Assembly: GCA_002400985.2 (NCBI GenBank)
Contig: NVRX02000006.1
Location: 169,368-214,786, forward strand
Direction of reading: 5' to 3'
DNA: 45,419 bases
From: Candidatus Wolfebacteria bacterium
GTDB taxonomy: Bacteria > Patescibacteriota > Minisyncoccia > Phycocordibacterales > Phycocordibacteraceae
Below are positions 6,383 to 23,020 of this stretch, in pieces. Within the stretch, counting starts at the first letter, position 1; each line of letters opens with the position of its first letter. The notes below the pieces were generated by a model. It searched no databases, was not told the DNA's origin, and saw only the letters and a program-made list of their open reading frames with translations. Position numbers and translations under genes: made by a program.

Positions 6383-7897
6383 ATGAATGAAGATTTAATA
6401 AAGCTCCAAAAAAATCAATTGAAAAGGCTTCCGAATCTCCTGAAAAAGCAAAATTCAGATTATTGGATTAAGGCAGGAAATAAAGAAAAACTGCGTCTTT
6501 TTCATGCGGTTGCAGAAAACGTACCTGCGTATAAAGATTTTCTGCAGAAAAATAAATTGGACCCACGGACAATAAAGACAGTAGAAGATTTAAAAAAAGT
6601 TCCTACAATTGATAAAGATAACTATTTACGAGCATATCCACATGAAGATCTGATGTGGAATGGCACTTTAAAGAAACCTCTTACAATTCATGCCACGTCT
6701 GGATCAACAGGGGAGTCAACCTACTTTGAAAGAGAACTCTCATCAGACTTAAAAAGAGCTTTTATTGTAGATTCTTTTTATAAACAAAATAAAAAAACTA
6801 CCGAAGGACCAACTTTATTTATAGTTGCTTTCGGAATGGGTATTTGGTCTGCTGGAATGGGTATTTATACAGGAGTATATCTTGCTGGACAAATACACCA
6901 GTACCCAGTTTCAATTATCACGCCAGGAGTAAGTAAAGAAGAGGTGTTAAAAATATTAAGAAACATTGCACCAAGGTTTAAGCAGGTCATCATTGCAGGC
7001 TATCCTCCTTTTGTTAAGGATGTAATTGACGAAGCTCAATCTGAAGGAATTCCTTTAAAGAATTTCAATTTAAGATTTATTTTTACAGGAGAAGCCTTCA
7101 CAGAGGAGTTTCGAGATTATCTATCAAATCGAGCTGATGTAAAAAATGTTCTTTTAGACACAATGAATACATATGGAACTGCTGAGCTTGGACCCATGGC
7201 TGTTGAAACACCTCTTGTTATATTAATTCGTCGTCTAACAGATAAAAAAATATTCTCAAAACTTTTTGGTGATATTACAAAAACTCCAACTCTCACACAG
7301 TATATTCCAAATTTTGTAAACTTTGATTGTGAAAATGGGGAACTTTTATTTACAGGCGATAGCACGATACCTTTAGTGCGCTATCGTTCAGGAGATCACG
7401 GAGGCATTCTTACTTATAAAGAGGTTGCAGGAAAACTCAAAAAACAAGGCGTTGATTTAGAGAAAAAATGTAAAGAGGCGGGAATTACTGACTATATATC
7501 ACAATTACCAATGGTGTATGTATATGAACGTAAAAATCTTGCGGCAACATTGTATGGAATCCTAATATATCCAGAGTTTGTAAAGTCAGCTGTTTTGCAT
7601 CCGACATTTTACGATATTCTTACCGGAAAATTTACCTTAGTCCAAAAGTACGACAAAAAACAAGACCAATATTTAGAGGTTAATTTAGAATTAAGAAGTG
7701 GTGCTGATCCAACTTCGAAACAGAAAGCTCTTATCCAAAAACGCATTTTAAACGTTCTTAAAAAAAGAAGTTCTGAATTTAAAGAGCTTTGTAAAAATTT
7801 GGATGAAAGAGTACACCCCAGAATTGTTTTTTGGAAAAATGAAGATCCAAAGTTTTTTACACCTGGTTCTAAACAAAAATGGGTGCAAAAAACCTAA
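6383..7897 (+). CDS. Phenylacetate-CoA ligase (PaaK)-family adenylate-forming enzyme
   Basis: VPAYKDFL, TSGSTG P-loop, GYPPF, TGE, YGTAE, PLVRYRSGD motifs of the ANL/PaaK family. Confidence 0.85.
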   Translation: MNEDLIKLQKNQLKRLPNLLKKQNSDYWIKAGNKEKLRLFHAVAENVPAYKDFLQKNKLDPRTIKTVEDLKKVPTIDKDNYLRAYPHEDLMWNGTLKKPLTIHATSGSTGESTYFERELSSDLKRAFIVDSFYKQNKKTTEGPTLFIVAFGMGIWSAGMGIYTGVYLAGQIHQYPVSIITPGVSKEEVLKILRNIAPRFKQVIIAGYPPFVKDVIDEAQSEGIPLKNFNLRFIFTGEAFTEEFRDYLSNRADVKNVLLDTMNTYGTAELGPMAVETPLVILIRRLTDKKIFSKLFGDITKTPTLTQYIPNFVNFDCENGELLFTGDSTIPLVRYRSGDHGGILTYKEVAGKLKKQGVDLEKKCKEAGITDYISQLPMVYVYERKNLAATLYGILIYPEFVKSAVLHPTFYDILTGKFTLVQKYDKKQDQYLEVNLELRSGADPTSKQKALIQKRILNVLKKRSSEFKELCKNLDERVHPRIVFWKNEDPKFFTPGSKQKWVQKT

Positions 7898-7916
7898 TAA
7901 CTGTTAGATTAATAGT

Positions 7917-9038
7917 ATGGAAAACCCAATCATAATAAATCCTAAAGAGAAAAATTTAGAAAAAATAAAAAAAGAGTATTCACCAGACCATATAATCGAC
8001 ACCTACGAGCTACAACTTGAGGACCTTTATCAAATTAGAAACCCTCAATCAAAGTTCATGAAGGATTTCAGCAATGAACTAAAAAAGTTCATTGAAGAAC
8101 ACTCGCAAGGTGATTCTCTTGAGGATTGTGGTAGATGGGTTTATTTTCCCTGGAATAAAACACTTGTGCATTATCTTGAAGATGAAACTCATCAGGAGAT
8201 ACGTACGGCACGTAATAAAAATATTATTACCAAAGAAGAACAGGATAAATTTTATAATTTTAGTATTGGTGTTGCCGGCCTTAGTGTAGGAGGGCACAGT
8301 GCCTTAACAACCACACTTATGGGCGGAGCTGGAGAAATTCGCCTTGCTGATCCTGATGTTATTTCCCCAACAAATCTTAATCGAATACGTTTTGATTTCA
8401 GTCACGTTGGAAGAAATAAAGCAGACCTTGTTGCTGAGTATGTATACCAGCTAAACCCATACAATAAGGTCCATGTATTTGATGAAGGAATTACTGAAGA
8501 AAATATTGGTGACTTTCTAGACGGGTTGGATCTTCTGGTTGAAGAACTCGATGATATCGTAATGAAGGTAAGGCTTCGAGAAGAAGCTAAAAAGCGTGGC
8601 ATACCTGTGATTATGGCAACAGACAATGGGGATAATGTTATTTTGGATGTTGAACGTTATGATCTCAATCCCGATTATCCAATTTTCCATGGAAATCTTG
8701 ATGGTTTTGATTTGAAAGAACTTAAAGACTCTCCTCAAAAAATGTTTGAAGCAATGGGAAGAATCATTGACATAACTCTCGTACCAATTCGAGTCCAACA
8801 TTCTATTCATGAAGTTGGGAAGACCATCTATTCATGGCCGCAGCTTGCTTCAGCAGCAACCTTGTCAGGGGTGGTTATTGCCTACACAGCAAGAAGAATT
8901 GCTCTTGGACAGAAAGTAAAAGAAGGTAAGCTTGAGATAAATATTGAATCTGCAATTGATCCAGACTACCCACAAGTAAGAGAAGTACAATTAAAAGAGG
9001 CACAAAAATTCTTGAAGATGCTTGGAATTAAACAATAA
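7917..9038 (+). CDS. ThiF/E1-like adenylyltransferase, Rv1355c/OxzB N-terminal type
   Basis: WVYFPW, RTARNKNIIT.EEQ, VAGLSVGG, LADPD...TNLNRI, D.ERYDL.P, SWPQLAS. Confidence 0.88.
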   Translation: MENPIIINPKEKNLEKIKKEYSPDHIIDTYELQLEDLYQIRNPQSKFMKDFSNELKKFIEEHSQGDSLEDCGRWVYFPWNKTLVHYLEDETHQEIRTARNKNIITKEEQDKFYNFSIGVAGLSVGGHSALTTTLMGGAGEIRLADPDVISPTNLNRIRFDFSHVGRNKADLVAEYVYQLNPYNKVHVFDEGITEENIGDFLDGLDLLVEELDDIVMKVRLREEAKKRGIPVIMATDNGDNVILDVERYDLNPDYPIFHGNLDGFDLKELKDSPQKMFEAMGRIIDITLVPIRVQHSIHEVGKTIYSWPQLASAATLSGVVIAYTARRIALGQKVKEGKLEINIESAIDPDYPQVREVQLKEAQKFLKMLGIKQ

Positions 9039-9054
9039 AATACATTTATCGCTT

Positions 9055-10101
9055 ATGAATAAAGAATTATTACAAAAGATTATTGAAGCAGGAAATATTG
9101 CACCGTCAGGAGGTAATTCACAGCCTTGGAAATTTCATGTACGAGGAGATGAAATTGATGTAATTGCACTTCCTGAAAAAGATCATGCGGTTTTGAATGT
9201 AAAAAACAGGGGAACATATATAGCAAATGGAGCACTGCTAGAGAATATTAGTATAATGGCCAAATCTCTCGGGTACAGAGCAAATTTTCAAATATCTACA
9301 GATGAGGAAGTTCTTGCAAAGGTGTCATTTTCTGATTCGGTAAAAGATAATGAGCTTGCGCCGTACTTAGAAAGTCGTCATTCTAATAGAAAGCCTTATA
9401 TAAAAGAGACTCTTTCAAAAGAACAAAAAGAATATTTGTTTGCCAGAGAAGAAGATTATGAAAACTGCACTATTGCTATTGTTGAAGGAGAATCAATAGA
9501 ACCTGCAGCAAAGATTCTATCGTATGACATCTCTCTTAATATGCAAAATAAATGTCTCCATAAAATGCTTTTCGAAGAAGTTTTATGGAAAGAAGAAGAC
9601 CAAAAAGATAAACCAGGATTATATGTAAAAACAATGGAAACGGAACCTCCAAAGTCTTACATGTTTAGACTTTTAAAAAATTGGAATGTTGCAAAGTTTT
9701 TTACTAAAATTGGGCTTATTGAAAAGATTCAAAGTGAAAATACAAAAACTACTTCCAGCGCTGCTTTAATAGGTGCAATTATTGTCTCAGATAATAATCA
9801 AGACTTTGTTTCTGCGGGAAGATTTCTTGAAAATATTTGGTTACGAGCAACAAAACTTGGTCTATCGATGCATTTGAGTGCTGCTGTATCTTTTTTGGGT
9901 CAACAAGTAGAAGCTGGTGAAGAATCTTGTTTTTCAAAAACAGAGGTTGATCTATTAAAGAAATTAAATGTTCAGTTAAAATCTTCTTTTAAGGTTCCAG
10001 AGGGAAAGCTAATTTCAATCGCATTTCGACTAGGGCGTGGAGAAGATCCTTTGGCAACATCCTATAAGAGGTCTCCAGAGATTGAGTGGAGTAAGTCATA
10101 G
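9055..10101 (+). CDS. Nitroreductase-fold protein, Rv1355c/OxzB C-terminal (Acg-like) type
   Basis: APSGGNSQPW, G.LLEN, RHSNRKPY, GRFLENIWLRATKLGLS, FRLG; ATG 9055 preferred. Confidence 0.82.
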   Translation: MNKELLQKIIEAGNIAPSGGNSQPWKFHVRGDEIDVIALPEKDHAVLNVKNRGTYIANGALLENISIMAKSLGYRANFQISTDEEVLAKVSFSDSVKDNELAPYLESRHSNRKPYIKETLSKEQKEYLFAREEDYENCTIAIVEGESIEPAAKILSYDISLNMQNKCLHKMLFEEVLWKEEDQKDKPGLYVKTMETEPPKSYMFRLLKNWNVAKFFTKIGLIEKIQSENTKTTSSAALIGAIIVSDNNQDFVSAGRFLENIWLRATKLGLSMHLSAAVSFLGQQVEAGEESCFSKTEVDLLKKLNVQLKSSFKVPEGKLISIAFRLGRGEDPLATSYKRSPEIEWSKS

Positions 10102-10134: not shown

Positions 10135-11769
10135 ATGTTTGAGTTTTTGCTAAACTTTCAAAATTTAGATCTTTTTTCTGTTGGTGCTGCAGTAGCGGGT
10201 ATGTTACTACTTGGTTTTGTTGTTCTCTTTGGAGACGTTAAAAGTGCAACAAACCGTACTTTTTTATGGCTCACAATTACTGCCAGTGCTTGGGGGATGG
10301 TTAATTATGCTGTATATCAACCTTTTTACTCGGAAGATTTTTCTTTAATATTACTGCGTATAGCAGTATTTTTCTCTGTTTGGGCTGCTTTTTCTACATT
10401 TACTTTTATTTATGTTTTCCCTAATAAAAAATTAGAATTATCGTGGCCTTATGTATATGTTCTTATTCCAATAACAATCTTTGTATCTTTTATTGCATTA
10501 ACACCGTTTGTATTTCAAAGCGTAACTGAACTAACTGCAGGAGGTAGTATTTTAACAGTGTTAAATGGCCCGGGTATTTACCTTTATGGAGCTCTCATAA
10601 CTTTTTTTAATGCAGGAAGTGTAATCCTTTTAATTAAAAAATTGTTAAAGAAAGATGAAAAACAAAATAAACAACTTCAACTAATTTTAGTTGGCGTAGC
10701 ATTAATGTTGGCCTTGATAACAACTTTTAATTTTATCCTTCCCGCTTTCTTTAATAATTCTAGCTTTATTGCTTTAGGAGGAATTTTTCAATTCCCATTC
10801 ATAGTCCTTGCTTCGTATGCAATACTTCGGCATGGATTATTCAATGTAAAAGTAGCAGGAGCAGCACTTCTTGTTCTAGCTTTGTCAGTTTTAACTCTTG
10901 GAGAGGTTATAAACGCTGGTACCTTAGGTCTTGTTCTTTTTAGAATTAGTATTTTCATATTAGTTTTGATATTTGGCATAAACTTAATTAGAAGTGTGAT
11001 TAGAGAAGTGAAACAGAGGGAAAGAATTGAAAAGCTAGCAAAAGATCTTGAAGTTGCAAATAAAAGATTAAAAGAACTTGACCGACAAAAATCAGAATTT
11101 GTTTCTATTGCATCACACCAGCTGCGAAGTCCTATTACCGCAATACGTGGATATATTTCTCTCATTATAGAAAAAGAGTTTGGAGATTATCCGCAAGCTA
11201 TTCGAGAGCCACTAGATCGTATTTTAGAGTCTAGTCGTCTCATGGTTAAGTCTATTGAAGATTACTTAAATATATCTCGCATTGAACAGGGGAGAATGAA
11301 ATATGAAATGAGCGATTTTGATATATCAAAATTATCTAAAACTGTCGTTAATGAATATAAGCCTATTGCTGACAAGAAAGGTCTAGACATAATGTTTAGC
11401 GGCCCAGAAAAAAATATGGTCCATGCTGATATTGGAAAAATAAAACAAGTTATTGCAAATCTTGTAGACAATTCAATAAAGTATACTCCAGCTGGAAATA
11501 TAAATGTAAAAGCAACCGCCTTTGAGGGTAAGGCAAGAATTACTGTTTCTGACACAGGAGTGGGTCTTGAAAAGGAGGACCTTGGTGACCTATTTAATAA
11601 ATTTGTACGTGCTCGTGGCGCAAATAAAATTAATACTTCAGGAACAGGTCTTGGACTTTATGTAGCAAAACAAATGATAGAAGCTCACAAAGGGAAGATA
11701 TGGGTAGAGTCTGATGGAAAAGGGAAAGGTTCAAGATTTATTTTTGAACTTCCAATAGCTACTTCTTAG
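10135..11769 (+). CDS. Membrane sensor histidine kinase (multi-TM N-terminal region, HisKA, HATPase_c)
   Basis: About 9 hydrophobic segments; H-box IASHQLRSP, N-box NLVDNSIKY, DTGVG, GTGLGL. Confidence 0.93.
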   Translation: MFEFLLNFQNLDLFSVGAAVAGMLLLGFVVLFGDVKSATNRTFLWLTITASAWGMVNYAVYQPFYSEDFSLILLRIAVFFSVWAAFSTFTFIYVFPNKKLELSWPYVYVLIPITIFVSFIALTPFVFQSVTELTAGGSILTVLNGPGIYLYGALITFFNAGSVILLIKKLLKKDEKQNKQLQLILVGVALMLALITTFNFILPAFFNNSSFIALGGIFQFPFIVLASYAILRHGLFNVKVAGAALLVLALSVLTLGEVINAGTLGLVLFRISIFILVLIFGINLIRSVIREVKQRERIEKLAKDLEVANKRLKELDRQKSEFVSIASHQLRSPITAIRGYISLIIEKEFGDYPQAIREPLDRILESSRLMVKSIEDYLNISRIEQGRMKYEMSDFDISKLSKTVVNEYKPIADKKGLDIMFSGPEKNMVHADIGKIKQVIANLVDNSIKYTPAGNINVKATAFEGKARITVSDTGVGLEKEDLGDLFNKFVRARGANKINTSGTGLGLYVAKQMIEAHKGKIWVESDGKGKGSRFIFELPIATS

Positions 11770-12538
11770 ACTCTTTGCTAATACGTTTTGCCTCACTATG
11801 TGCAAGATCAAAGATATTTTTTGACATTTGTGCAATTTCTTTATCTTCAATAATTACTGCTGTTCCACCATTAGCGCTATTCATGTAGGCGATTTTGTCA
11901 TCATAAATTGCATAATCAGAGGTAAAATCAAAAGATTTAGAAGGAATAAGTACTGCATCATCACGCGCTGTTTTACTAGATTTCATAGACATGAGAATTC
12001 TTCCAAGTTTATTGTCTGGGTGTATACCAATCATTTTTATTCCTAGTTCTGCTCTTTTGTCTATATACTTAGGCATATATAAAGGTAGTAGTTTACTTAT
12101 TTTTAAAACAGAAGAAGCAATGCGTATTACTTTTTCTTTTGTTTGAAGAGAGTCTTCAAATGTTGCTATTAAACCTTTTCTGCCTTCATAAACTCTAACC
12201 TTGGGCTTGCTCCTCGTGTCTTTGTGAAGGGCTTTTAACTCAGGAAGTATTTTGTGTAAACCTTCCTTAATAAGATTTTTCTCTTGAATGGTAGATTCAA
12301 TTTCTTGAATAAGGATTTCAGGATTAGTGGCAATATACTGTTTTACACTCTTGTCTTCAGAGATGCTTACCAATCCTTTGTTGAGTAGGGAATCAAGCAC
12401 CACATATGTAGAGCTTCGATTTACATCAGCTCGTTCTGCCACTTCATTAGCTGTTGCTACCTCAAGTTCAATAAGAGCAACGTATACTTTTGCCTCCTTT
12501 TCACTCAGCCCAAATTTTTCTAATTGCTTAGTTAACAT
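11759..12538 (-). CDS. TrmB-family transcriptional regulator (N-terminal wHTH, C-terminal PLD-like effector domain)
   Basis: GLSEKEAKVYVALI...RSSTYVVLDSLLNKGLV, PKVRVYEG..G, IYDDKIA. Confidence 0.88.
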   Translation of the reverse strand: MLTKQLEKFGLSEKEAKVYVALIELEVATANEVAERADVNRSSTYVVLDSLLNKGLVSISEDKSVKQYIATNPEILIQEIESTIQEKNLIKEGLHKILPELKALHKDTRSKPKVRVYEGRKGLIATFEDSLQTKEKVIRIASSVLKISKLLPLYMPKYIDKRAELGIKMIGIHPDNKLGRILMSMKSSKTARDDAVLIPSKSFDFTSDYAIYDDKIAYMNSANGGTAVIIEDKEIAQMSKNIFDLAHSEAKRISKESKK

Positions 12539-12549
12539 ATGTAATTACG

Positions 12550-12732
12550 TGTTGGTTATATACAACATAAAAGCAGACTATTTGACATAATGCAAATATT
12601 GTTGTTGGAGACTAACAACAATATTGAAATAACCCTTTAACTAAAAGCTTTAAAACTGTTTGTTTCTGTTGGCTTGTTTTGACAGCTTAAATACTTTTAT
12701 TGCGTTGTTTTTGTTAAATATTTACGACATTT
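12550..12732. promoter_or_regulatory. Four TGTTR-N8-YRACA (TGT-N12-ACA) operator-like boxes between the divergent trmB-like and vanX-like genes
   Basis: 12550 tgttg-gttatata-caaca; 12603 tgttg-gagactaa-caaca (inside a perfect 12-bp inverted repeat 12595-12625); 12667 tgttg-gcttgttt-tgaca; 12712 tgtta-aatattta-cgaca. Confidence 0.75.
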
Positions 12733-12740
12733 CTAAATAG
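12679..12740 (+). repeat. Direct repeat copy 1 (about 60 bp; copy 2 at 14919-14982)
   Basis: 12704-12732 is identical to 14944-14972 (29 nt); flanks similar; offset 2240 nt. Confidence 0.92.
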
Positions 12741-12780
12741 GGCAAAATTTATTTTGGATGTTCTATGAAAGGAGCTCAAA

Positions 12781-13587
12781 ATGTCTACAAATACAAAAAA
12801 CTCACTTTGCATGGAGTCAGCAATGCAAATAATTTCCTCCAATACTCAAAAAGCATACGCAAAAAGATCTTGGAAGGAAGTTCCCATTATTGCAAGCAAA
12901 GAACCCTTAATAAGTCTTCCGTCTGCAATATCTTCTCCTTACTATTCAAAAGTAATGAATCTTGGGGGCGGAAACACAATATATCTTAGAGAAAGTGTCT
13001 TAACTTCTTTGAATGAGGCGCGAGATAAATTACTTTCTCTCGGTTATGATTTACAAGTTTATGATGGTTGGAGGTCTGTAGAACTTCAAGAAGAACTTTT
13101 TTGGTTTTATATGAAGAAGTTCACTATTGAACTGTTTCCAGAAATAAAACACTTATTTGAGAAGGCTATAAGAATTTCTCAAATAAAAAACTGTTTTTAT
13201 GAATTGCCAATCATGAAGCAAAAGCTTGTAAAGAAAGCGAATTGTGAATACGTAAGTTGGCCGTCAAAAGACCCTATGGTTCCAAGTCCTCACTCTACTG
13301 GGGGCGCTGTAGATGTCTGGCTTTACAAGGATGGCAAGGCTTTAGATTTTGGCGTTCCCTTTGACTGGATGGAAGATTCAGCTGGGGCTTTCTATCATCT
13401 AAAAAAGAATCGAAAAAGATTTCCCAATGATTCTGAAGTCTGCAGGAACAGGACTCTGTTAACTTTGTCTATGGAAAGTGTTGGGTTTTCTTGTTATCCG
13501 TCAGAATTTTGGCACTTTAATCTGGGTAACCAGATGGATGGTCTTGTTAAGAATACAGACGCTTTGTATTCTTATATTGAACCATAA
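12781..13587 (+). CDS. D-Ala-D-Ala dipeptidase, VanX/DdpX family (peptidase M15D)
   Basis: YDGWRS..LQ, SPHSTGGAVD (SxHxxGxAxD), SEFWHF (ExWH); AAGGAG SD. Confidence 0.88.
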   Translation: MSTNTKNSLCMESAMQIISSNTQKAYAKRSWKEVPIIASKEPLISLPSAISSPYYSKVMNLGGGNTIYLRESVLTSLNEARDKLLSLGYDLQVYDGWRSVELQEELFWFYMKKFTIELFPEIKHLFEKAIRISQIKNCFYELPIMKQKLVKKANCEYVSWPSKDPMVPSPHSTGGAVDVWLYKDGKALDFGVPFDWMEDSAGAFYHLKKNRKRFPNDSEVCRNRTLLTLSMESVGFSCYPSEFWHFNLGNQMDGLVKNTDALYSYIEP

Positions 13588-13590
13588 TCT

Positions 13591-13621
13591 AACGGAGGGC
13601 AATTATGCCCTCCGTTTCTCT
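13591..13621 (+). terminator. Hairpin, probable terminator between vanX-like gene and ddl
   Basis: Perfect aacggagggca-atta-tgccctccgtt stem; short T tail. Confidence 0.7.
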
Positions 13622-13638
13622 ATGATAATATATTTAAA

Positions 13639-14688
13639 ATGCCAAAACGTAAAATAATACTTTTTTTTGGAGGAGAATCAGAAGAGCATAAAATTTCAAT
13701 TCTTTCTGCAAAAAACATATTGAGAGCAATAGACAAAGATAGATATCAGGTTTGTTTGGTTGGCATCACAAGGAGTGGTGTGTGGCGAAGAATAGAGCCA
13801 GCTCAATTATTAGACAGCTCGTATGACGAAGTTGAGGATAAAGACTCTGAAACTGAAGTACTTTTTTCTTTTAGTAAAAAAATGTTTTGTTTTGTTAAAA
13901 AAGGAAGTAAACAATGGATTAAGTTTGATAATGCTTTCCCAATTCTACATGGAAAGAACGGGGAAGATGGGACAATTCAAGGTTTTCTTGAAATTGCAGG
14001 AATTAATTATGTTGGCGGAGACGTTCTTGGCTCCGCAATTGGAATAGACAAAGAAATTTCTAAAAAAATATTACAACAGGCAGATTTATTAGTTGCAAAA
14101 TATCTTACAATTCAAAGTTCTGAAAAAACCCCAACTTATCAGACTGTATCAAATCTTCTAGGAAGATCTCTTTACGTAAAGCCAGCACGCTCAGGGTCCT
14201 CTTTAGGAGTGTCTAGAGTAGAAAATGAAAAACAGTATAAGGAAGCGCTGAAAGCTGCACACAAGGTCGATTCCAAAATTATTGTAGAAGAGAATATTAT
14301 TGGGCGAGAGATTGAATGTGCAGTACTTGGCAACTTACTACCAAAAGTTTCGACACTAGGAGAAGTGCTTGTAAAAGACAGGTTTTATAGTTATGAGGAA
14401 AAATATAATGCCACTTCTACAACTAAAGTAATAATTCCTGCAAAACTAACTGAACAAGAAGCTCTTACTGCAAAGAAATTAGCAATGCAAGCATATAAAG
14501 TCTTGCGTTGCAGAGGTCTTGCTCGTGTGGATTTATTTTTCTCAAAAAATATTTTTTATGTGAATGAGATAAATACAATGCCAGGTTTCACTAATAAAAG
14601 TATTTACCCAAAACTATGGGAAGACAAAGGCCTTTCATATAAAGAACTTGTAACTTGCTTGTTAAAGCTTTCTGATGAGAAAAAATAA
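13639..14688 (+). CDS. ddl: D-alanine--D-alanine ligase (DdlA-like)
   Basis: FGGESEEH.IS, LHGKNGEDGTIQG, KPARSGSSLG, FYSYEEKY, ARVD, NEINTMPGFT. Confidence 0.93.
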   Translation: MPKRKIILFFGGESEEHKISILSAKNILRAIDKDRYQVCLVGITRSGVWRRIEPAQLLDSSYDEVEDKDSETEVLFSFSKKMFCFVKKGSKQWIKFDNAFPILHGKNGEDGTIQGFLEIAGINYVGGDVLGSAIGIDKEISKKILQQADLLVAKYLTIQSSEKTPTYQTVSNLLGRSLYVKPARSGSSLGVSRVENEKQYKEALKAAHKVDSKIIVEENIIGREIECAVLGNLLPKVSTLGEVLVKDRFYSYEEKYNATSTTKVIIPAKLTEQEALTAKKLAMQAYKVLRCRGLARVDLFFSKNIFYVNEINTMPGFTNKSIYPKLWEDKGLSYKELVTCLLKLSDEKK

Positions 14689-14787
14689 CTAGTGTTTCTA
14701 TTTAATAGTTTGACAGATTTATTGTCGAAGGTTCTTTTTGCTAAAAGTAGAGAAACACGACGCATAAAGAAATTAATTTATACGCTG

Positions 14788-14982
14788 TGTTAGTTATTCA
14801 CAACATAAAAACATGTCATTTAATATAGCTCTGCCTATGTTAGATATAGTCTAATGGTGACATATTCTAATGTCTTTTATACAAGCCATGATAAGTCACT
14901 AGTAGATGTGGGTGTATCTTGACAAAATAAATAGTTTTGTTGTGTTGTTTTTGTTAAATATTTACGACATTTTCTAAAATAG
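14788..14982. promoter_or_regulatory. Second regulatory region with three TGT-N12-ACA boxes, including direct repeat copy 2
   Basis: 14788 tgtta-gttattca-caaca; 14907 tgtgg-gtgtatct-tgaca; 14952 tgtta-aatattta-cgaca; 14787-14810 matches 12549-12572 at 21/24 nt. Confidence 0.75.
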
Positions 14983-15049
14983 TAGTTTTACTTAAAGAGA
15001 AAGGCATTCTGCTTTTCTTAAAACTGTTCTTTACAGAAAGGAGGACACA

Positions 15050-15547
15050 ATGCGTACCAATTTACGTATCGTTGAAGACATTGATACTCAACTTTGTAAT
15101 GCAGCAAAATTATATGGTCAAATGCAAGAGTATTCGAACAAAGGTCTTCTAAATAAGTTGATCGAGGACGGATACTCACGCCATGATGCAAAAGAACTTA
15201 TTGACGATGTCAAAAAGTTTCTTGCATTAGCCGCAAGTGTTTCAGAAGCTATTGCTCCAACAAAAGCACTGGATATTGGATGGCACGCCTTTATTCTCTT
15301 TACAAGGGAATATAGTAAGTTTTGCTTACGGTATTGTGGTTGGTTTATACACCATGAACCAGTTGATAAAGAGTCTGATTTACCAGACTATGAAATGTTG
15401 CCACGAACAAAAAAGCTTGCAAAAGCTGCCTTTGGTGCACTTTCTAAAAATTGGGAAGTTACAAAAGGTCAAAATGATGTCGATTGCAACCCTATTGGGT
15501 GTCAAGACAAAGAATGTTCAGTTCCTGACTGTTCATCAAATCAGTAA
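15050..15547 (+). CDS. Glycine-rich domain-containing (GRDP/DUF1399-like) protein with C-terminal CX4CX4CX4C tail
   Basis: KKFLAL...P...LDIGWHAFILFTREYSKFC...FIHHEP family signature; tail CNPIGCQDKECSVPDCSSNQ; AAGGAGG SD. Confidence 0.75.
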   Translation: MRTNLRIVEDIDTQLCNAAKLYGQMQEYSNKGLLNKLIEDGYSRHDAKELIDDVKKFLALAASVSEAIAPTKALDIGWHAFILFTREYSKFCLRYCGWFIHHEPVDKESDLPDYEMLPRTKKLAKAAFGALSKNWEVTKGQNDVDCNPIGCQDKECSVPDCSSNQ

Positions 15548-15551
15548 TACT

Positions 15552-15590
15552 GTGGGCGCATGTACACGTGTGTATATGCGCCCACTTTTT
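15552..15590 (+). terminator. Intrinsic terminator after GRDP-like gene
   Basis: gtgggcgcatgtac...gtatatgcgcccac long stem followed by TTTTT. Confidence 0.8.
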
Positions 15591-15601
15591 ATACTAAGAA
15601 T

Positions 15602-16180
15602 ATGAAATGGGATAAATATTTAACAAACACAGAAAATGGTCCGGCTAGGATTCTTTTAAAAGAATCTATTAAGTATTTAGAAATTTACTCAAAACCAAAA
15701 GCGTTGGACTTGGGTGCGGGATCTCTAAACGACACAAAATTCTTATTAAAAAAAGGATTTGATGTTGTTGCCGTTGATTCAAACAAAAAAGTTAAAGAGT
15801 TGGCAAAACATTTACCAAAAGAAAATTTTGAAATGAACGTATCTTCTTTTGATAAATATGATTTCAAAAAAAATTCTTTCAATATTGTTAATGCCCAGTA
15901 CGCTCTTCCATTTAACAGTCCTAAAACTTCTAATAAAGTAATTTCTGATATAAAAAACTCAATTAAAAGTAATGGAATTTTTGTTGGACAGTTTTTTGGG
16001 ATAGAAGATGATTGGTCAGATATAAAAAGTATGACATTTCATGCTTTGGAAGATGTAGAAAGTTTTTTTGAGAAAAACTGGGTTGTGCATAAACTTGAAG
16101 AAGAAAAACAATTTAAAAAAACAGCGGCTGGTAAAGACAAATATTGGCATGTCTTTCATGTTATTGCGCAGAAAATTTAA
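15602..16180 (+). CDS. Class I SAM-dependent methyltransferase (TehB-like)
   Basis: ALDLGAG motif I, VVAVD, GIFVGQFFG, KYWHVFHVIAQK; ATG 15602 follows TATACT. Confidence 0.85.
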   Translation: MKWDKYLTNTENGPARILLKESIKYLEIYSKPKALDLGAGSLNDTKFLLKKGFDVVAVDSNKKVKELAKHLPKENFEMNVSSFDKYDFKKNSFNIVNAQYALPFNSPKTSNKVISDIKNSIKSNGIFVGQFFGIEDDWSDIKSMTFHALEDVESFFEKNWVVHKLEEEKQFKKTAAGKDKYWHVFHVIAQKI

Positions 16181-16181
16181 A

Positions 16182-16799
16182 ATGCTCAAAATACAAATAA
16201 AACACAATAGATTTTTAGATCCGGTTTTTTGGTGTCATTTTCAACAACGTTTTAAAATAACAATTTTAAAACGAGAAACTCAAGATGAAATAGATCTTAT
16301 TATAAAAGAATACAAAGAGACCTGGTTCAAAAATGAAAAGAAGATTTTAAAAGCAATACAGCAAATAACAAAATTGACTTTTAAGCACTCTCTTATTGAT
16401 GTACATATTGTTCGTAGAATAGATCGGAGTTTTAGTAGGCCTATAATTTTTGATATAAGAAAAGCTCCAGAAAATTTTTGTGATCAACTAACTCACGAGT
16501 TATTACACATAATTCTCCAAGAAAATAATAATATTGTTTCTTGGGAGGTTTTAGAGTGGTTAAACGAGAGGTTTCCAAAAGAAAGTGACACAACAAGAAA
16601 TCATATTTTTATTCATGCGGTTTTAAAGAAAATCTATATAAATATCTTAAAGAATCCTAAACGCCTTAAGGAAAACATGAAGCGATCACAAGGCCACCAC
16701 AACAATGATTATGTGAGGGCCTGGGAGATTGTAGAAGAGTATGGAGAAGATGAAATAATCAAAATGTTTACAAAATATTACAGAAGTGTAAACGCTTAA
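16182..16799 (+). CDS. Hypothetical protein with HExxH motif (putative zinc metallopeptidase fold)
   Basis: LTHELLH plus downstream NHIFIHA; ATG 1 nt after the upstream stop. Confidence 0.6.
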   Translation: MLKIQIKHNRFLDPVFWCHFQQRFKITILKRETQDEIDLIIKEYKETWFKNEKKILKAIQQITKLTFKHSLIDVHIVRRIDRSFSRPIIFDIRKAPENFCDQLTHELLHIILQENNNIVSWEVLEWLNERFPKESDTTRNHIFIHAVLKKIYINILKNPKRLKENMKRSQGHHNNDYVRAWEIVEEYGEDEIIKMFTKYYRSVNA

Positions 16800-22210: not shown

Positions 22211-23020
22211 ATGGTAACTAGATGGACAAAAGAAGAGGAATTTTTCTATAAAAAACAGTTAAAACAACTGTATGTTACAGAGAATCTTTCCATACAAGAA
22301 GTAGCAAATGTTCTTAAAATGTCAGACAAAGGAGTGTACGACCGTCTCGTAAGGCTTAATATCAAAACAACGCCTAATCTTAAAGTTAAATACTTAAATA
22401 GAAGGCCTCCGGTAAGACTTCCAAGAAAATCGAATGATCTCGCTGAATTCCTTGGAATAATGCTGGGTGATGGTCACGTTGCTCATTTTCAAACATTAGT
22501 AACTCTTGGAACAAAAGAAAAAGAATATGTCATATATGTCCAAAAACTAATGACAAAACTATTTCAAGTTCCAGCTACAGCAACTACAAATAAGAAAGGG
22601 TATAGCAATGTATACATTGGCTCAGTAGAAATAACCAAATTTTTAAAGCAAAAGCATGGACTTGTTCAAAACAAAGTTAAAGCACAGGTTGATGTCCCAT
22701 CTTGGATTTTTGAAAGAAAGTCATACATGAAAGCATTCTGTAAAGGATTTTTTGATACTGATGGGTCAATATATCGCTTAAAGTTTGGCGTGCAGATATC
22801 AATAACAAACTACTCAAAACCCCTGCTTCTCTCTTTACAAAGAATGCTTCGAACGTTAGGATACAGCGTATCTGAGATTAGTGTTGTTCGCTTTTACATA
22901 ACAAAAAGAAGTCATGTTGAGCGGTTTTTTGCAGAGATACAGCCTGCAAATAGCAAACACTGTGAAAGATACAAAAGATTCATGCGTCGATCGGATAGCG
23001 GCTATTCCAGGAGACTGTAA
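22211..23020 (+). CDS. LAGLIDADG homing-endonuclease-like protein with N-terminal HTH-like segment
   Basis: Two motifs LAEFLGIMLGDGH and FCKGFFDTDGS; 3' end overlaps tRNA-Tyr. Confidence 0.85.
   Translation: MVTRWTKEEEFFYKKQLKQLYVTENLSIQEVANVLKMSDKGVYDRLVRLNIKTTPNLKVKYLNRRPPVRLPRKSNDLAEFLGIMLGDGHVAHFQTLVTLGTKEKEYVIYVQKLMTKLFQVPATATTNKKGYSNVYIGSVEITKFLKQKHGLVQNKVKAQVDVPSWIFERKSYMKAFCKGFFDTDGSIYRLKFGVQISITNYSKPLLLSLQRMLRTLGYSVSEISVVRFYITKRSHVERFFAEIQPANSKHCERYKRFMRRSDSGYSRRL

What the first reader, a model, noticed from the sequence alone, without database searches (positions are those of the whole stretch)
12549..14982. Duplicated regulatory architecture with seven TGT-N12-ACA boxes defines a TrmB-like mini-regulon
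Seen: the regions upstream of the vanX-like gene and of the GRDP-like gene are paralogous. They share an identical 29-mer (12704-12732 = 14944-14972), a 21/24 match further upstream (12549 and 14787), and near-identical spacing. Both carry palindromic boxes of consensus TGTTR-N8-YRACA at 12550, 12603, 12667, 12712, 14788, 14907 (one mismatch) and 14952. One box lies 11 nt from the trmB start codon. The conserved TTGACA is the right half of a box and has no sigma70 -10 at 17 nt. Both target genes have an SD and end in a hairpin. Inference: the divergent TrmB-like protein autoregulates and co-controls two unrelated-looking genes. I know of no described operator for this CPR regulator type.
Basis: partly seen in the sequence, partly recalled or inferred. 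Interest (0 to 1): 0.75.

Follow-up and report, generated by a model that had tools for sequence, protein, structure and literature searches.

The report
Operator array of a CPR TrmB-like repressor
Two copies of a ~240-base promoter-plus-operator module, most likely controlled by the neighbouring TrmB-like regulator, switch a small set of swappable accessory genes in a tiny-genome (Patescibacteria) bacterium, and the same operator motif sits upstream of this regulator's relatives across the whole order.

Summary
The two regions upstream of the vanX-like gene and the 165-aa GRDP-like gene are collinear paralogues. They hold 8 of the window's 22 TGT-N12-ACA sites in 603 nt, and they are the only two such clusters in the 592-kb genome. 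An unbiased scan upstream of 37 homologous trmB genes from other genomes ranked TGT-N12-ACA first of 1344 palindrome/spacer combinations (36 of 37 loci, 72 sites against 2.4 expected). The consensus is TGTYR-N8-YRACA.

The protein is a TrmBL2-type TrmB-family member (wHTH, long helix, PLD-like C-domain) and the only TrmB gene in the genome.

The box inside the identical 29-mer overlaps a -35-like hexamer (TTTACG), with a -10-like hexamer 16 nt downstream. This geometry recurs in 13 of 18 modules, so repression is the most likely mode. No binding or expression data exist.

A sister genome and a metagenome contig carry the same two modules with different cargo (a Gly-rich peptide plus a C39-like protein; an acidic peptide). 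The module therefore behaves as a portable control cassette for accessory genes.

No paper on TrmB in Patescibacteria, Parcubacteria or CPR was found in the held library. I rate it a new variant of a known kind, of moderate interest.

The parts
11759..12538 (-). trmB-like regulator gene (259 aa): wHTH, long helix and PLD-like C-terminal domain, of TrmBL2 type
   Evidence: Pfam TrmB 69.1 bits against a cut-off of 25.6. The profile hits PDB TrmBL2 over the full length at E 3e-8. AF2 model pLDDT 88. Foldseek best match is TrmBL2 5bpd at E 4e-15, and the C-domain resembles PLD-like Nuc/Zucchini. It is the only TrmB-family gene in G000.
12539..12780 (.). Module A: divergent control region between trmB and the vanX-like gene
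   Evidence: Collinear paralogue of module B. Conserved in G002 and in a metagenome contig.
12550..12567 (.). Box 1, TGTTGGTTATATACAACA, 11 nt from the trmB start codon
   Evidence: A proximal box at -19 to -30 recurs in 16 of 39 homologue loci.
12595..12625 (.). Box 2: perfect 12-bp inverted repeat, with two overlapping TGT-N12-ACA registers at 12600 and 12603 (TGTTGT-N9-ACAACA)
   Evidence: Pair I16. The same double register occurs in G002, G024, G237, G155 and G246.
12667..12684 (.). Box 3, TGTTGGCTTGTTTTGACA; its TTTGAC is invariant in all six modules compared
   Evidence: The left half is not conserved in G002 or the metagenome contig.
12712..12729 (.). Box 4, TGTTAAATATTTACGACA, inside the 29-mer; it overlaps the -35-like hexamer
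   Evidence: A 24-nt core is invariant in six modules.
12721..12748 (+). Predicted vanX-ddl promoter: -35 TTTACG (12721-12726), 16-nt spacer, -10 CAAAAT (12743-12748)
   Evidence: Positional test: 13 of 18 modules have A2 and T6 at exactly this offset, against 0 to 5 at the 38 other offsets. This is an inference; there are no transcript data.
12781..13587 (+). vanX-like M15 peptidase gene (268 aa), cargo of module A
   Evidence: Pfam Peptidase_M15 60.8 bits. It falls below the NCBIfam VanX and D-Ala-D-Ala dipeptidase cut-offs. Among the four genus genomes it was found only in G000.
13639..14688 (+). D-Ala-D-Ala ligase gene (349 aa), probably co-transcribed with vanX
   Evidence: NF002528 395.7 bits against a cut-off of 262; no Van-type cut-off is met. 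All four genus genomes also carry a separate ATP-grasp gene whose open frame is 309-311 aa. The gap to vanX is 51 nt, with a hairpin and no module.
14787..15049 (.). Module B: second copy of the control region, upstream of the 165-aa gene
14788..14805 (.). Box 5, TGTTAGTTATTCACAACA (paralogue of box 1)
14907..14924 (.). Box 6, TGTGGGTGTATCTTGACA (paralogue of box 3)
14952..14969 (.). Box 7, TGTTAAATATTTACGACA (identical to box 4)
14961..14988 (+). Predicted promoter of the 165-aa gene: -35 TTTACG (14961-14966), -10 TAGTTT (14983-14988)
   Evidence: This is an inference.
15050..15547 (+). 165-aa GRDP-like (PF27765 UCP032817-like) gene, cargo of module B
   Evidence: No hit in the local Pfam copy. 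Precomputed PF27765. Atlas clusters are PF27765/GRDP-like. It is 30% identical (E 7e-12) to a GRDP-like gene that lies divergent from trmB in G358.
15552..15585 (+). Terminator-like hairpin with T-run after the 165-aa gene

Best explanation
The TGT-N12-ACA boxes (consensus TGTYR-N8-YRACA) are the operators of the divergently encoded TrmBL2-type TrmB-family regulator.

The regulator probably binds each palindrome as a dimer or a larger oligomer. Several boxes are arrayed over a ~200-bp bidirectional control region.

The promoter-distal box (box 4 or 7, inside the 29-mer) covers the -35 hexamer of the cargo promoter, so binding should block RNA polymerase. The boxes next to trmB (boxes 1 and 2) lie over its own promoter or leader, which would give negative autoregulation.

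The whole module is duplicated. One regulator therefore controls two transcription units: vanX-like plus ddl, and the GRDP-like gene.

The module is portable. Close relatives keep both copies but carry different accessory genes behind them.

What is shown: the motif, its clustering, its association with this regulator clade, and its position relative to promoter-like hexamers. What is inferred: binding, the repressor sign, the oligomeric state and the signal, which is unknown and possibly sensed by the PLD-like C-domain.
For: 1. Clustering. 8 of the 165 genome sites fall in two regions totalling 603 nt, and these are the only clusters in 592 kb. Other non-coding DNA sits at background, 12 sites in about 49 kb.

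2. PWM scan. Only two untrained sites score 14 or more among the three top-ranked outside the modules, and those two lie inside ORFs; the third (14.1) was not inspected.

3. Footprinting.
- In 39 homologue loci (33-100% identity), 38 have at least one site in the 300 nt upstream: 6.9/kb against 0.26/kb in the rest of the loci.
- The remaining 33 places from the order search give 24 of 33, 3.2/kb against 0.22/kb.
- An unbiased scan of 64 trinucleotide palindromes by 21 spacers, without G000 and G002, ranks TGT-N12-ACA first: 36 of 37 loci, 72 observed against 2.4 expected.

4. Recurrent architecture. Boxes lie near -20, -72 and -180 from the trmB start. Of 23 successive spacings, 9 fall within 50-56 nt and 7 within 107-115 nt.

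5. Promoter overlap. 13 of 18 modules have a -10-like hexamer (A2 and T6) exactly 16 nt after a -35-like hexamer at box positions 10-15. No other offset exceeds 5.

6. Conservation. The 24-nt core around box 4 is invariant in six modules from three genomes, while the flanks diverge.

7. Candidate binders. G000 has one TrmB gene. Its four receiver-domain genes have open frames of 130-145 aa, too short for a DNA-binding output.

8. Fold. It matches TrmBL2/TrmB. In archaea, TrmB-family proteins are sequence-specific repressors or activators at palindromes, and TrmBL2 is tetrameric (passages read in PMC4158304 and PMC4877046).
Against: - There are no binding or expression data. No RNA run was listed for this DNA.
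- G001 (same genus, 99% complete) has no TrmB match by protein or by PF01978. It still carries one promoter copy with a 2-mismatch box upstream of a small peptide gene. The element can therefore exist without the regulator.
- The ACA half-sites partly coincide with -35-like hexamers, so part of the signal could be promoter conservation.
- Among more distant homologues (28-31% identity), only 1 of 9 loci has a site.
- Related genomes are not independent, so the counts overstate the support.
- Box 3's left half and the extended box 2 palindrome are not conserved in G002.
- TrmBL2, the closest solved relative, binds DNA without sequence specificity.
Confidence: 0.72

Rival explanations
1. The same protein binds the boxes but activates the cargo promoters, or acts both ways. 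This would compensate for their weak -35 and -10 hexamers, while the protein still represses its own gene.
For: - The predicted hexamers are weak: TTTACG / CAAAAT in module A and TTTACG / TAGTTT in module B.
- The consensus promoter scan did not find them. Its total count was no higher than in shuffles (8 found, mean 10.7).
- TrmBL1/Tgr and the Halobacterium TrmB act as both repressor and activator (Table 1 and text passages of PMC4158304).
Against: - The box is centred on the -35 hexamer itself (box positions 10-15). That geometry more often occludes RNA polymerase.
- G001 keeps the promoter without any TrmB gene. This fits a promoter that works unaided.
Confidence: 0.13
2. The boxes are not TrmB sites. 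They are promoter architecture or sites for another factor, inherited together with trmB through synteny.
For: - G001 has the box plus promoter but no TrmB.
- In the large single-box group, the right half-site is the TTGACA -35 hexamer of the trmB promoter itself.
Against: - The left TGT at a fixed 12-nt distance is conserved across dozens of genera whose flanking genes are unrelated.
- The motif is at background in the other non-coding DNA of G000.
- No other DNA-binding regulator is linked to the locus. The receiver-domain genes lack output domains.
Confidence: 0.1
3. The duplicated region is only a scar of segmental duplication or cassette insertion and has no regulatory role.
For: The two copies flank an accessory vanX-ddl cassette that is absent from this locus in G002.
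Against: Within the modules, conservation is concentrated on the boxes and the 24-nt core, while the rest has diverged. Both copies persist in three genomes with different cargo.
Confidence: 0.03

Closest known systems
TrmBL2 (Pyrococcus furiosus / Thermococcus kodakarensis TK0471), PDB 5box/5bpd/5bqt
   Same: - Same length class: 259 aa against 264 aa.
[quoted passage not shown]
- Best sequence-profile hit and best fold hit over the full length.
- Represses when bound at promoters (passages of PMC4158304).
   Different: - TrmBL2 is an abundant chromatin protein that coats coding and intergenic DNA without sequence specificity.
- Here the evidence points to a specific 18-bp palindrome at a handful of sites.
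- Identity is about 24%.
- The NCBIfam TrmBL2 equivalog scores 32 bits against a cut-off of 530.
- This protein is bacterial (Patescibacteria), not archaeal.
TrmB / TrmBL1 (Tgr) of Thermococcales and TrmB of Halobacterium
   Same: - TrmB-family wHTH regulators that recognise inverted repeats at promoters.
- The gene lies next to a regulated operon.
- Autoregulation is reported for some members (Table 1 of PMC4158304).
   Different: - Their motifs are TACT-N3-AGTA, TATCAC-N5-GTGATA and TACT-N7-8-GAGTA, not TGTYR-N8-YRACA.
- They carry a sugar-binding effector domain that is absent here (259 aa; fold).
- They control sugar metabolism, not variable accessory genes.
BlaI/MecI-type wHTH repressors with divergent autoregulated operons
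   Same: - A weak Pfam Penicillinase_R match to the wHTH (23 bits), with MecI among the fold hits.
- A divergent repressor gene.
- Palindromic operators overlapping both promoters.
- Cell-wall-related cargo in G000.
   Different: - The protein architecture differs: long helix plus PLD-like domain.
- No sensor-protease partner was seen.
- The similarity is limited to the wHTH.

Membership tests
TrmB family (Pfam PF01978) | N-terminal TrmB-type winged helix-turn-helix above the Pfam gathering score | tested here: met
   69.1 bits against a cut-off of 25.6, covering residues 6-74.
TrmB family (Pfam PF01978) | Long amphipathic dimerisation helix followed by a C-terminal (PLD-like) domain, as in the solved TrmB and TrmBL2 structures | tested here: met
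   The AF2 model has helix 73-105 followed by an alpha/beta domain. Foldseek matches TrmBL2 at E 4e-15 and TrmB 3qph at 2e-8. The C-domain matches Nuc/Zucchini and the TrmB sugar-domain entry 2f5t.
Sugar-sensing TrmB/TrmBL1 subgroup | Additional C-terminal sugar-binding subdomain (proteins of about 340 aa) | tested here: not met
   The protein is 259 aa. The NCBIfam TrmB and TrmBL1 equivalogs score 22-40 bits against cut-offs of 600-650, and only over the N-terminal part.
TrmBL2 orthologues | NCBIfam equivalog NF041141 above its cut-off | tested here: not met
   32.3 bits against a cut-off of 530. The protein has the TrmBL2-like architecture but is not an orthologue.
TrmBL2 orthologues | Sequence-independent coating of DNA | not testable with these tools
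   The conserved specific motif argues for specificity, but binding was not measured.
VanX D-Ala-D-Ala dipeptidase | Equivalog score, or at least the M15 domain | tested here: inconclusive
   Pfam Peptidase_M15 is met at 60.8 bits against a cut-off of 27. NCBIfam VanX scores 40.5 against 320, and PRK10178 scores 59 against 176, so neither is met. The translation shows SPHSTGGAVD and EFWHF. I recall these as the Zn-binding and catalytic motifs of this family; that is recalled, not tested.
Van-type D-Ala-D-Lac / D-Ala-D-Ser ligases | NCBIfam exception or equivalog models above their cut-offs | tested here: not met
   The best Van model is VanG, at 329 bits against a cut-off of 495. The generic D-Ala-D-Ala ligase subfamily NF002528 is met at 395.7 against 262.
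GRDP-like / UCP032817-like (PF07173 / PF27765) | Family profile match | tested here: inconclusive
   The local Pfam copy gives no hit. The collection records a precomputed PF27765 for this protein and its three relatives. Atlas feature and structure hits are PF27765/GRDP-like clusters, with scores of 0.92-0.93 and TM of 0.62-0.70. A 30%-identical relative reaches PF07173 at 23.5 bits against a cut-off of 22.7.

The most novel reading that the evidence does not exclude
A bacterial TrmBL2-type protein has become a sequence-specific master switch in Patescibacteria.

- Arrays of 18-bp operators are phased about 54 nt apart (five helical turns). They would nucleate a higher-order, TrmBL2-like oligomer that silences a portable ~240-bp promoter cassette.
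- Copies of this cassette would act as landing pads. Accessory genes (cell-wall enzymes, Gly-rich and acidic peptides, GNATs, radical-SAM enzymes) would be exchanged there between close relatives by recombination.
- The conserved convergent 7TM histidine kinase occurs in genomes without DNA-binding response regulators. It may feed its signal into this regulator by a non-canonical route.
Probability: 0.15. Interest if true: 0.75.

Novelty: new variant of a known kind. Interest (0 to 1): 0.55.

Why it matters
Patescibacteria (CPR) have tiny genomes, few transcription factors and almost no described regulatory sites. Here a single comparative signal gives three things:
- a testable operator (TGTYR-N8-YRACA) for a widespread, uncharacterised bacterial branch of the TrmB family;
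- a promoter model for these organisms;
- evidence that the regulator governs a swappable set of accessory genes rather than a fixed pathway.

The finding also offers a natural contrast to archaeal TrmBL2. The architecture is the same, but DNA recognition here appears to be specific rather than non-specific.

The practical value is limited by the lack of cultivated hosts. Even so, the protein and the 240-bp module are small enough for in-vitro binding assays and heterologous reporter tests.

Tried and rejected
- Rfam scan of 12300-15300 at E<=1: only two chance-level hits, no RNA family.
- Consensus sigma-70 scan: 8 sites against a mean of 10.7 in shuffles, so uninformative. It listed TTGTTA-18-TAAAAT in module B. 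I rejected that assignment because only 3 of 18 modules have a -10-like hexamer at that offset.
- Extra PWM hits at G000 C1:230126 and C1:230589 lie inside ORFs. A lone non-coding site at C1:61552 lies just upstream of what reads like a tRNA gene; no tRNA scan was run. None was accepted as a target.
- The second ddl-like gene of G002 (43% identity) has no box nearby.
- Response-regulator rival: the four receiver-domain genes have open frames too short for a DNA-binding output, and none lies at this locus.
- TOMM/RiPP reading of the upstream ThiF and nitroreductase pair: NCBIfam shows the two halves of an Rv1355c-family protein instead. I dropped this reading.
- Sequencing runs: no RNA holder was listed. 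Laying DNA contigs of four runs showed contig breaks at the repeated modules and no joint across the cassettes, so there is no information on expression or on cassette loss.
- Literature: searches for TrmB with Patescibacteria, with 'candidate phyla radiation' plus 'transcription', and with Parcubacteria returned 0 papers. A broader regulon search gave only unrelated listings.
- Complex prediction was not used. A homodimer pass would mostly reflect likeness to solved TrmB structures.
Full report
**Context.** The window is G000:C1:169368-214786. The genome is 592 kb with 39% G+C in its large contigs.

The local gene order is as follows:
- a PaaK-like enzyme;
- a ThiF-like and a nitroreductase-like gene (the two halves of an Rv1355c-type protein);
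- a 7TM histidine kinase, 10135-11769 (+);
- the trmB-like gene, 11759-12538 (-);
- a 242-nt intergenic region;
- the vanX-like M15 peptidase gene, 12781-13587;
- ddl, 13639-14688;
- a 361-nt intergenic region;
- a 165-aa ORF, 15050-15547;
- a hairpin terminator;
- a methyltransferase gene.

**Observation.**
- The 29-mer is identical in both regions and lies within a 66-nt repeat of 83% identity. The 41-nt upstream repeat is 76% identical. The SD regions repeat as well, and the two intergenic regions align collinearly.
- TGT-N12-ACA occurs 22 times in the window against 14.7 expected, which alone is unremarkable (5 of 100 shuffles reach it). Eight of the 22 fall in the two regions, 603 nt in all.
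- Genome-wide there are 165 sites (0.28/kb). The only clusters of three or more within 300 nt are these two.
- In an ORF-based approximation of non-coding DNA (49.7 kb) there are 20 sites: 8 here and 12 elsewhere. That is 0.24/kb, no higher than in coding DNA.
- A PWM built from the boxes finds three sites scoring 14 or more outside the modules. Two lie inside ORFs; the third (14.1) was not inspected.

**The regulator.**
- Pfam places residues 6-74 in the TrmB wHTH family.
- A profile of 36 homologues matches Pyrococcus TrmBL2 over its full length (E 3e-8), and TrmB more weakly.
- The AF2 model (pLDDT 88) shows a wHTH, a 33-residue helix and an alpha/beta C-domain.
- Foldseek ranks the TrmBL2 chains first (E 4e-15, 24% identity). 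The C-domain resembles PLD-like nucleases, as in the TrmB effector domain.
- The protein fails the NCBIfam equivalog cut-offs for TrmB, TrmBL1 and TrmBL2. It is therefore a TrmB-family member with TrmBL2-like architecture, not an orthologue.
- G000 has only this one TrmB-family gene.

**Phylogenetic footprinting.** I examined homologue loci from two searches.
- Loci at 33-100% identity: 38 of 39 have at least one TGT-N12-ACA in the 300 nt upstream. There are 81 sites in 11.7 kb (6.9/kb), against 0.26/kb in the remainder of the same loci.
- I chose that identity cut. There, 10 of 10 loci at 33% identity or more had a site, but only 1 of 9 loci at 28-31%.
- To remove the selection, I fetched the 33 remaining places of the order search (E 1e-40 to 7e-29). 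Of these, 24 of 33 have a site, 3.2/kb against 0.22/kb.
- Together with G011 (no site), 52 of the 63 places outside G000 at E<=1e-28 carry the motif.
- An unbiased enumeration covered 64 trinucleotide palindromes by 21 spacers on 37 loci, without G000 and G002. It ranks TGT-N12-ACA first (36 of 37 loci, 72 sites against 2.4 expected). The next combinations are its own sub-patterns.
- Related genomes are not independent, so these counts overstate the statistical support. However, the flanking genes differ widely, which argues against simple co-inheritance.

**Architecture.** Two layouts recur.
- In the clade nearest G000 (37-100% identity), boxes lie near -20, -72 (often a double register, TGTTGT-N9-ACAACA), sometimes -127, and -180 from the trmB start. 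Of 23 successive spacings, 9 are 50-56 nt and 7 are 107-115 nt. This suggests placement on one face of the helix.
- In the larger, more distant group, a single box (TGTGGAAA..ATTGACA) lies at about -47. Its right half is the TTGACA -35 hexamer of the trmB promoter itself.
- The histidine kinase lies convergent to trmB in 8 of the 39 loci, all of the multi-box type. In a ninth locus, L054, the kinase lies on trmB's upstream, divergent side.

**The cargo promoter.** I aligned 18 modules on the distal box.
- Box positions 10-15 form a -35-like hexamer (TTTACG, TTTACA, TCGACA, TAGACA and the like).
- Thirteen of 18 modules have a hexamer with A at position 2 and T at position 6 starting exactly 16 nt later. 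At the 38 other offsets the count is 0 to 5.
- In the window this gives -35 at 12721-12726 and -10 at 12743-12748 for vanX, and -35 at 14961-14966 and -10 at 14983-14988 for the 165-aa gene.
The promoter lies one box further on.
- A protein bound to box 4 or 7 would sit on the -35 hexamer, so I favour repression. This is an inference, because no transcript data exist.

**Portability.**
- G002 (same genus; TrmB 83% identical, kinase 76%) keeps module A next to trmB and a module B 914 nt away, both with the identical core. It has no vanX or ddl there.
- In G002, module A drives a 23-aa Gly-rich peptide and a stand-alone C39-like protein. Module B drives a 69-aa acidic peptide and a GNAT.
- A 555-kb metagenome contig has the same two modules with a 27-aa Gly-rich peptide, the C39-like gene and a shorter acidic peptide.
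- Aligning the six modules leaves three invariant parts: the left half of box 1, TTTGAC of box 3, and a 24-nt core around box 4.
- The B copies keep several boxes although no trmB gene adjoins them. This hints that the array, and not only the -35 box, matters.
- Within the genus, the vanX-like gene was found only in G000. The 349-aa ddl was found only in G000 and, at 43% identity elsewhere, in G002. All four genomes share a separate ATP-grasp gene whose open frame is 309-311 aa. The vanX-ddl unit is therefore accessory.
- Across the order, the genes divergent from trmB are varied: GTP cyclohydrolase II, nitroreductase-like, radical SAM/SPASM, pilin-like, NUDIX, EamA, SLOG, another GRDP-like gene and many of unknown function.

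**Evidence against, and open points.**
- G001 (same genus, 99% complete) has no TrmB by two searches. It nevertheless has one promoter copy with a 2-mismatch box and a good TTTACA-N16-TAATAT promoter ahead of a small peptide gene. The promoter can stand without the regulator. That fits a repressor model (constitutive expression after loss) but also leaves room for the 'promoter architecture' rival.
- The invariant TTTGAC is unexplained.
- The metagenome relative's TrmB is about 90% identical over the first 120 residues and about 30% over the C-domain. The effector domain therefore evolves independently of the DNA-binding part. The signal remains unknown.

**Comparison with known systems.** According to the passages I read in the TrmB-family review (PMC4158304), the known motifs are TACT-N3-AGTA, TATCAC-N5-GTGATA, TACT-N7-8-GAGTA and ATAATACT repeats. 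TrmBL2 binds coding and intergenic DNA alike. Passages of PMC4877046 describe TrmBL2 as a tetramer covering about two turns of DNA. None of these matches TGTYR-N8-YRACA.

Searches of the held library for TrmB with Patescibacteria, with 'candidate phyla radiation', or with Parcubacteria returned no paper. Papers outside that library were not searched.

**Verdict.** It is a new variant of a known kind: an autoregulated wHTH repressor with palindromic operators. It has three notable features: a TrmBL2-type protein with apparent sequence specificity, a phased operator array, and a duplicated, portable control module with swappable cargo.

Noticed in passing
window 10135-11769 (+) and 11759-12538 (-): A 7TM histidine kinase converges on trmB and overlaps its end by 11 nt. 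The kinase lies convergent to trmB in 8 of 39 homologue loci, and on the divergent side in a ninth, L054. G000's four receiver-domain genes have open frames of 130-145 aa, too short for a DNA-binding output, and lie elsewhere.
   Followed up: partly
window 6383-10101: A PaaK-like adenylating enzyme (504 aa) is followed by a ThiF-like gene (7917-9038) and a nitroreductase-like gene (9022-10101). These two match the two halves of the Rv1355c-family model. Nitroreductase-like genes also lie divergent from trmB in two other genomes.
   Followed up: partly
L022 6533-6604 (-) and L084 2611-2694 (+): Module A in G002 and in a metagenome relative drives a 23-27-aa Gly-rich peptide with a conserved N-terminus. 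A stand-alone 166-aa C39-like cysteine-peptidase-domain protein follows it. Function unknown.
   Followed up: partly
L032 about 1490-1760 (G001): A genus member without any TrmB gene has one promoter copy, with a 2-mismatch box and TTTACA-N16-TAATAT. It lies ahead of a small hydrophilic peptide gene flanked by terminator-like hairpins.
   Followed up: partly
L084 1553-2326 (-): The TrmB of the metagenome relative is mosaic. The N-terminal 120 aa are about 90% identical to the window's protein, and the C-terminal domain only about 30%.
   Followed up: no
window 12679-12684 and 14919-14924: TTTGAC, about 33 nt upstream of box 4 or 7, is invariant in all six modules compared. It has no -10 partner, and its left half-site is not conserved. 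Unexplained.
   Followed up: partly
window 22211-23020: A LAGLIDADG-domain ORF (269 aa) lies between a tyrosyl-tRNA synthetase gene and a second class-I W/Y synthetase gene.
   Followed up: no
G000 contigs C4, C6, C7: Three short contigs (3.3-5.0 kb) have 55-59% G+C, against 39% for the rest of the genome. They may not belong to this organism.
   Followed up: no
window 15560-16799 compared with L022 3656-4856: The methyltransferase and the neighbouring gene of 210-243 aa with no Pfam family are conserved between G000 and G002, but their order relative to the direction of transcription is swapped. The region beyond the modules is therefore also rearranged.
   Followed up: no
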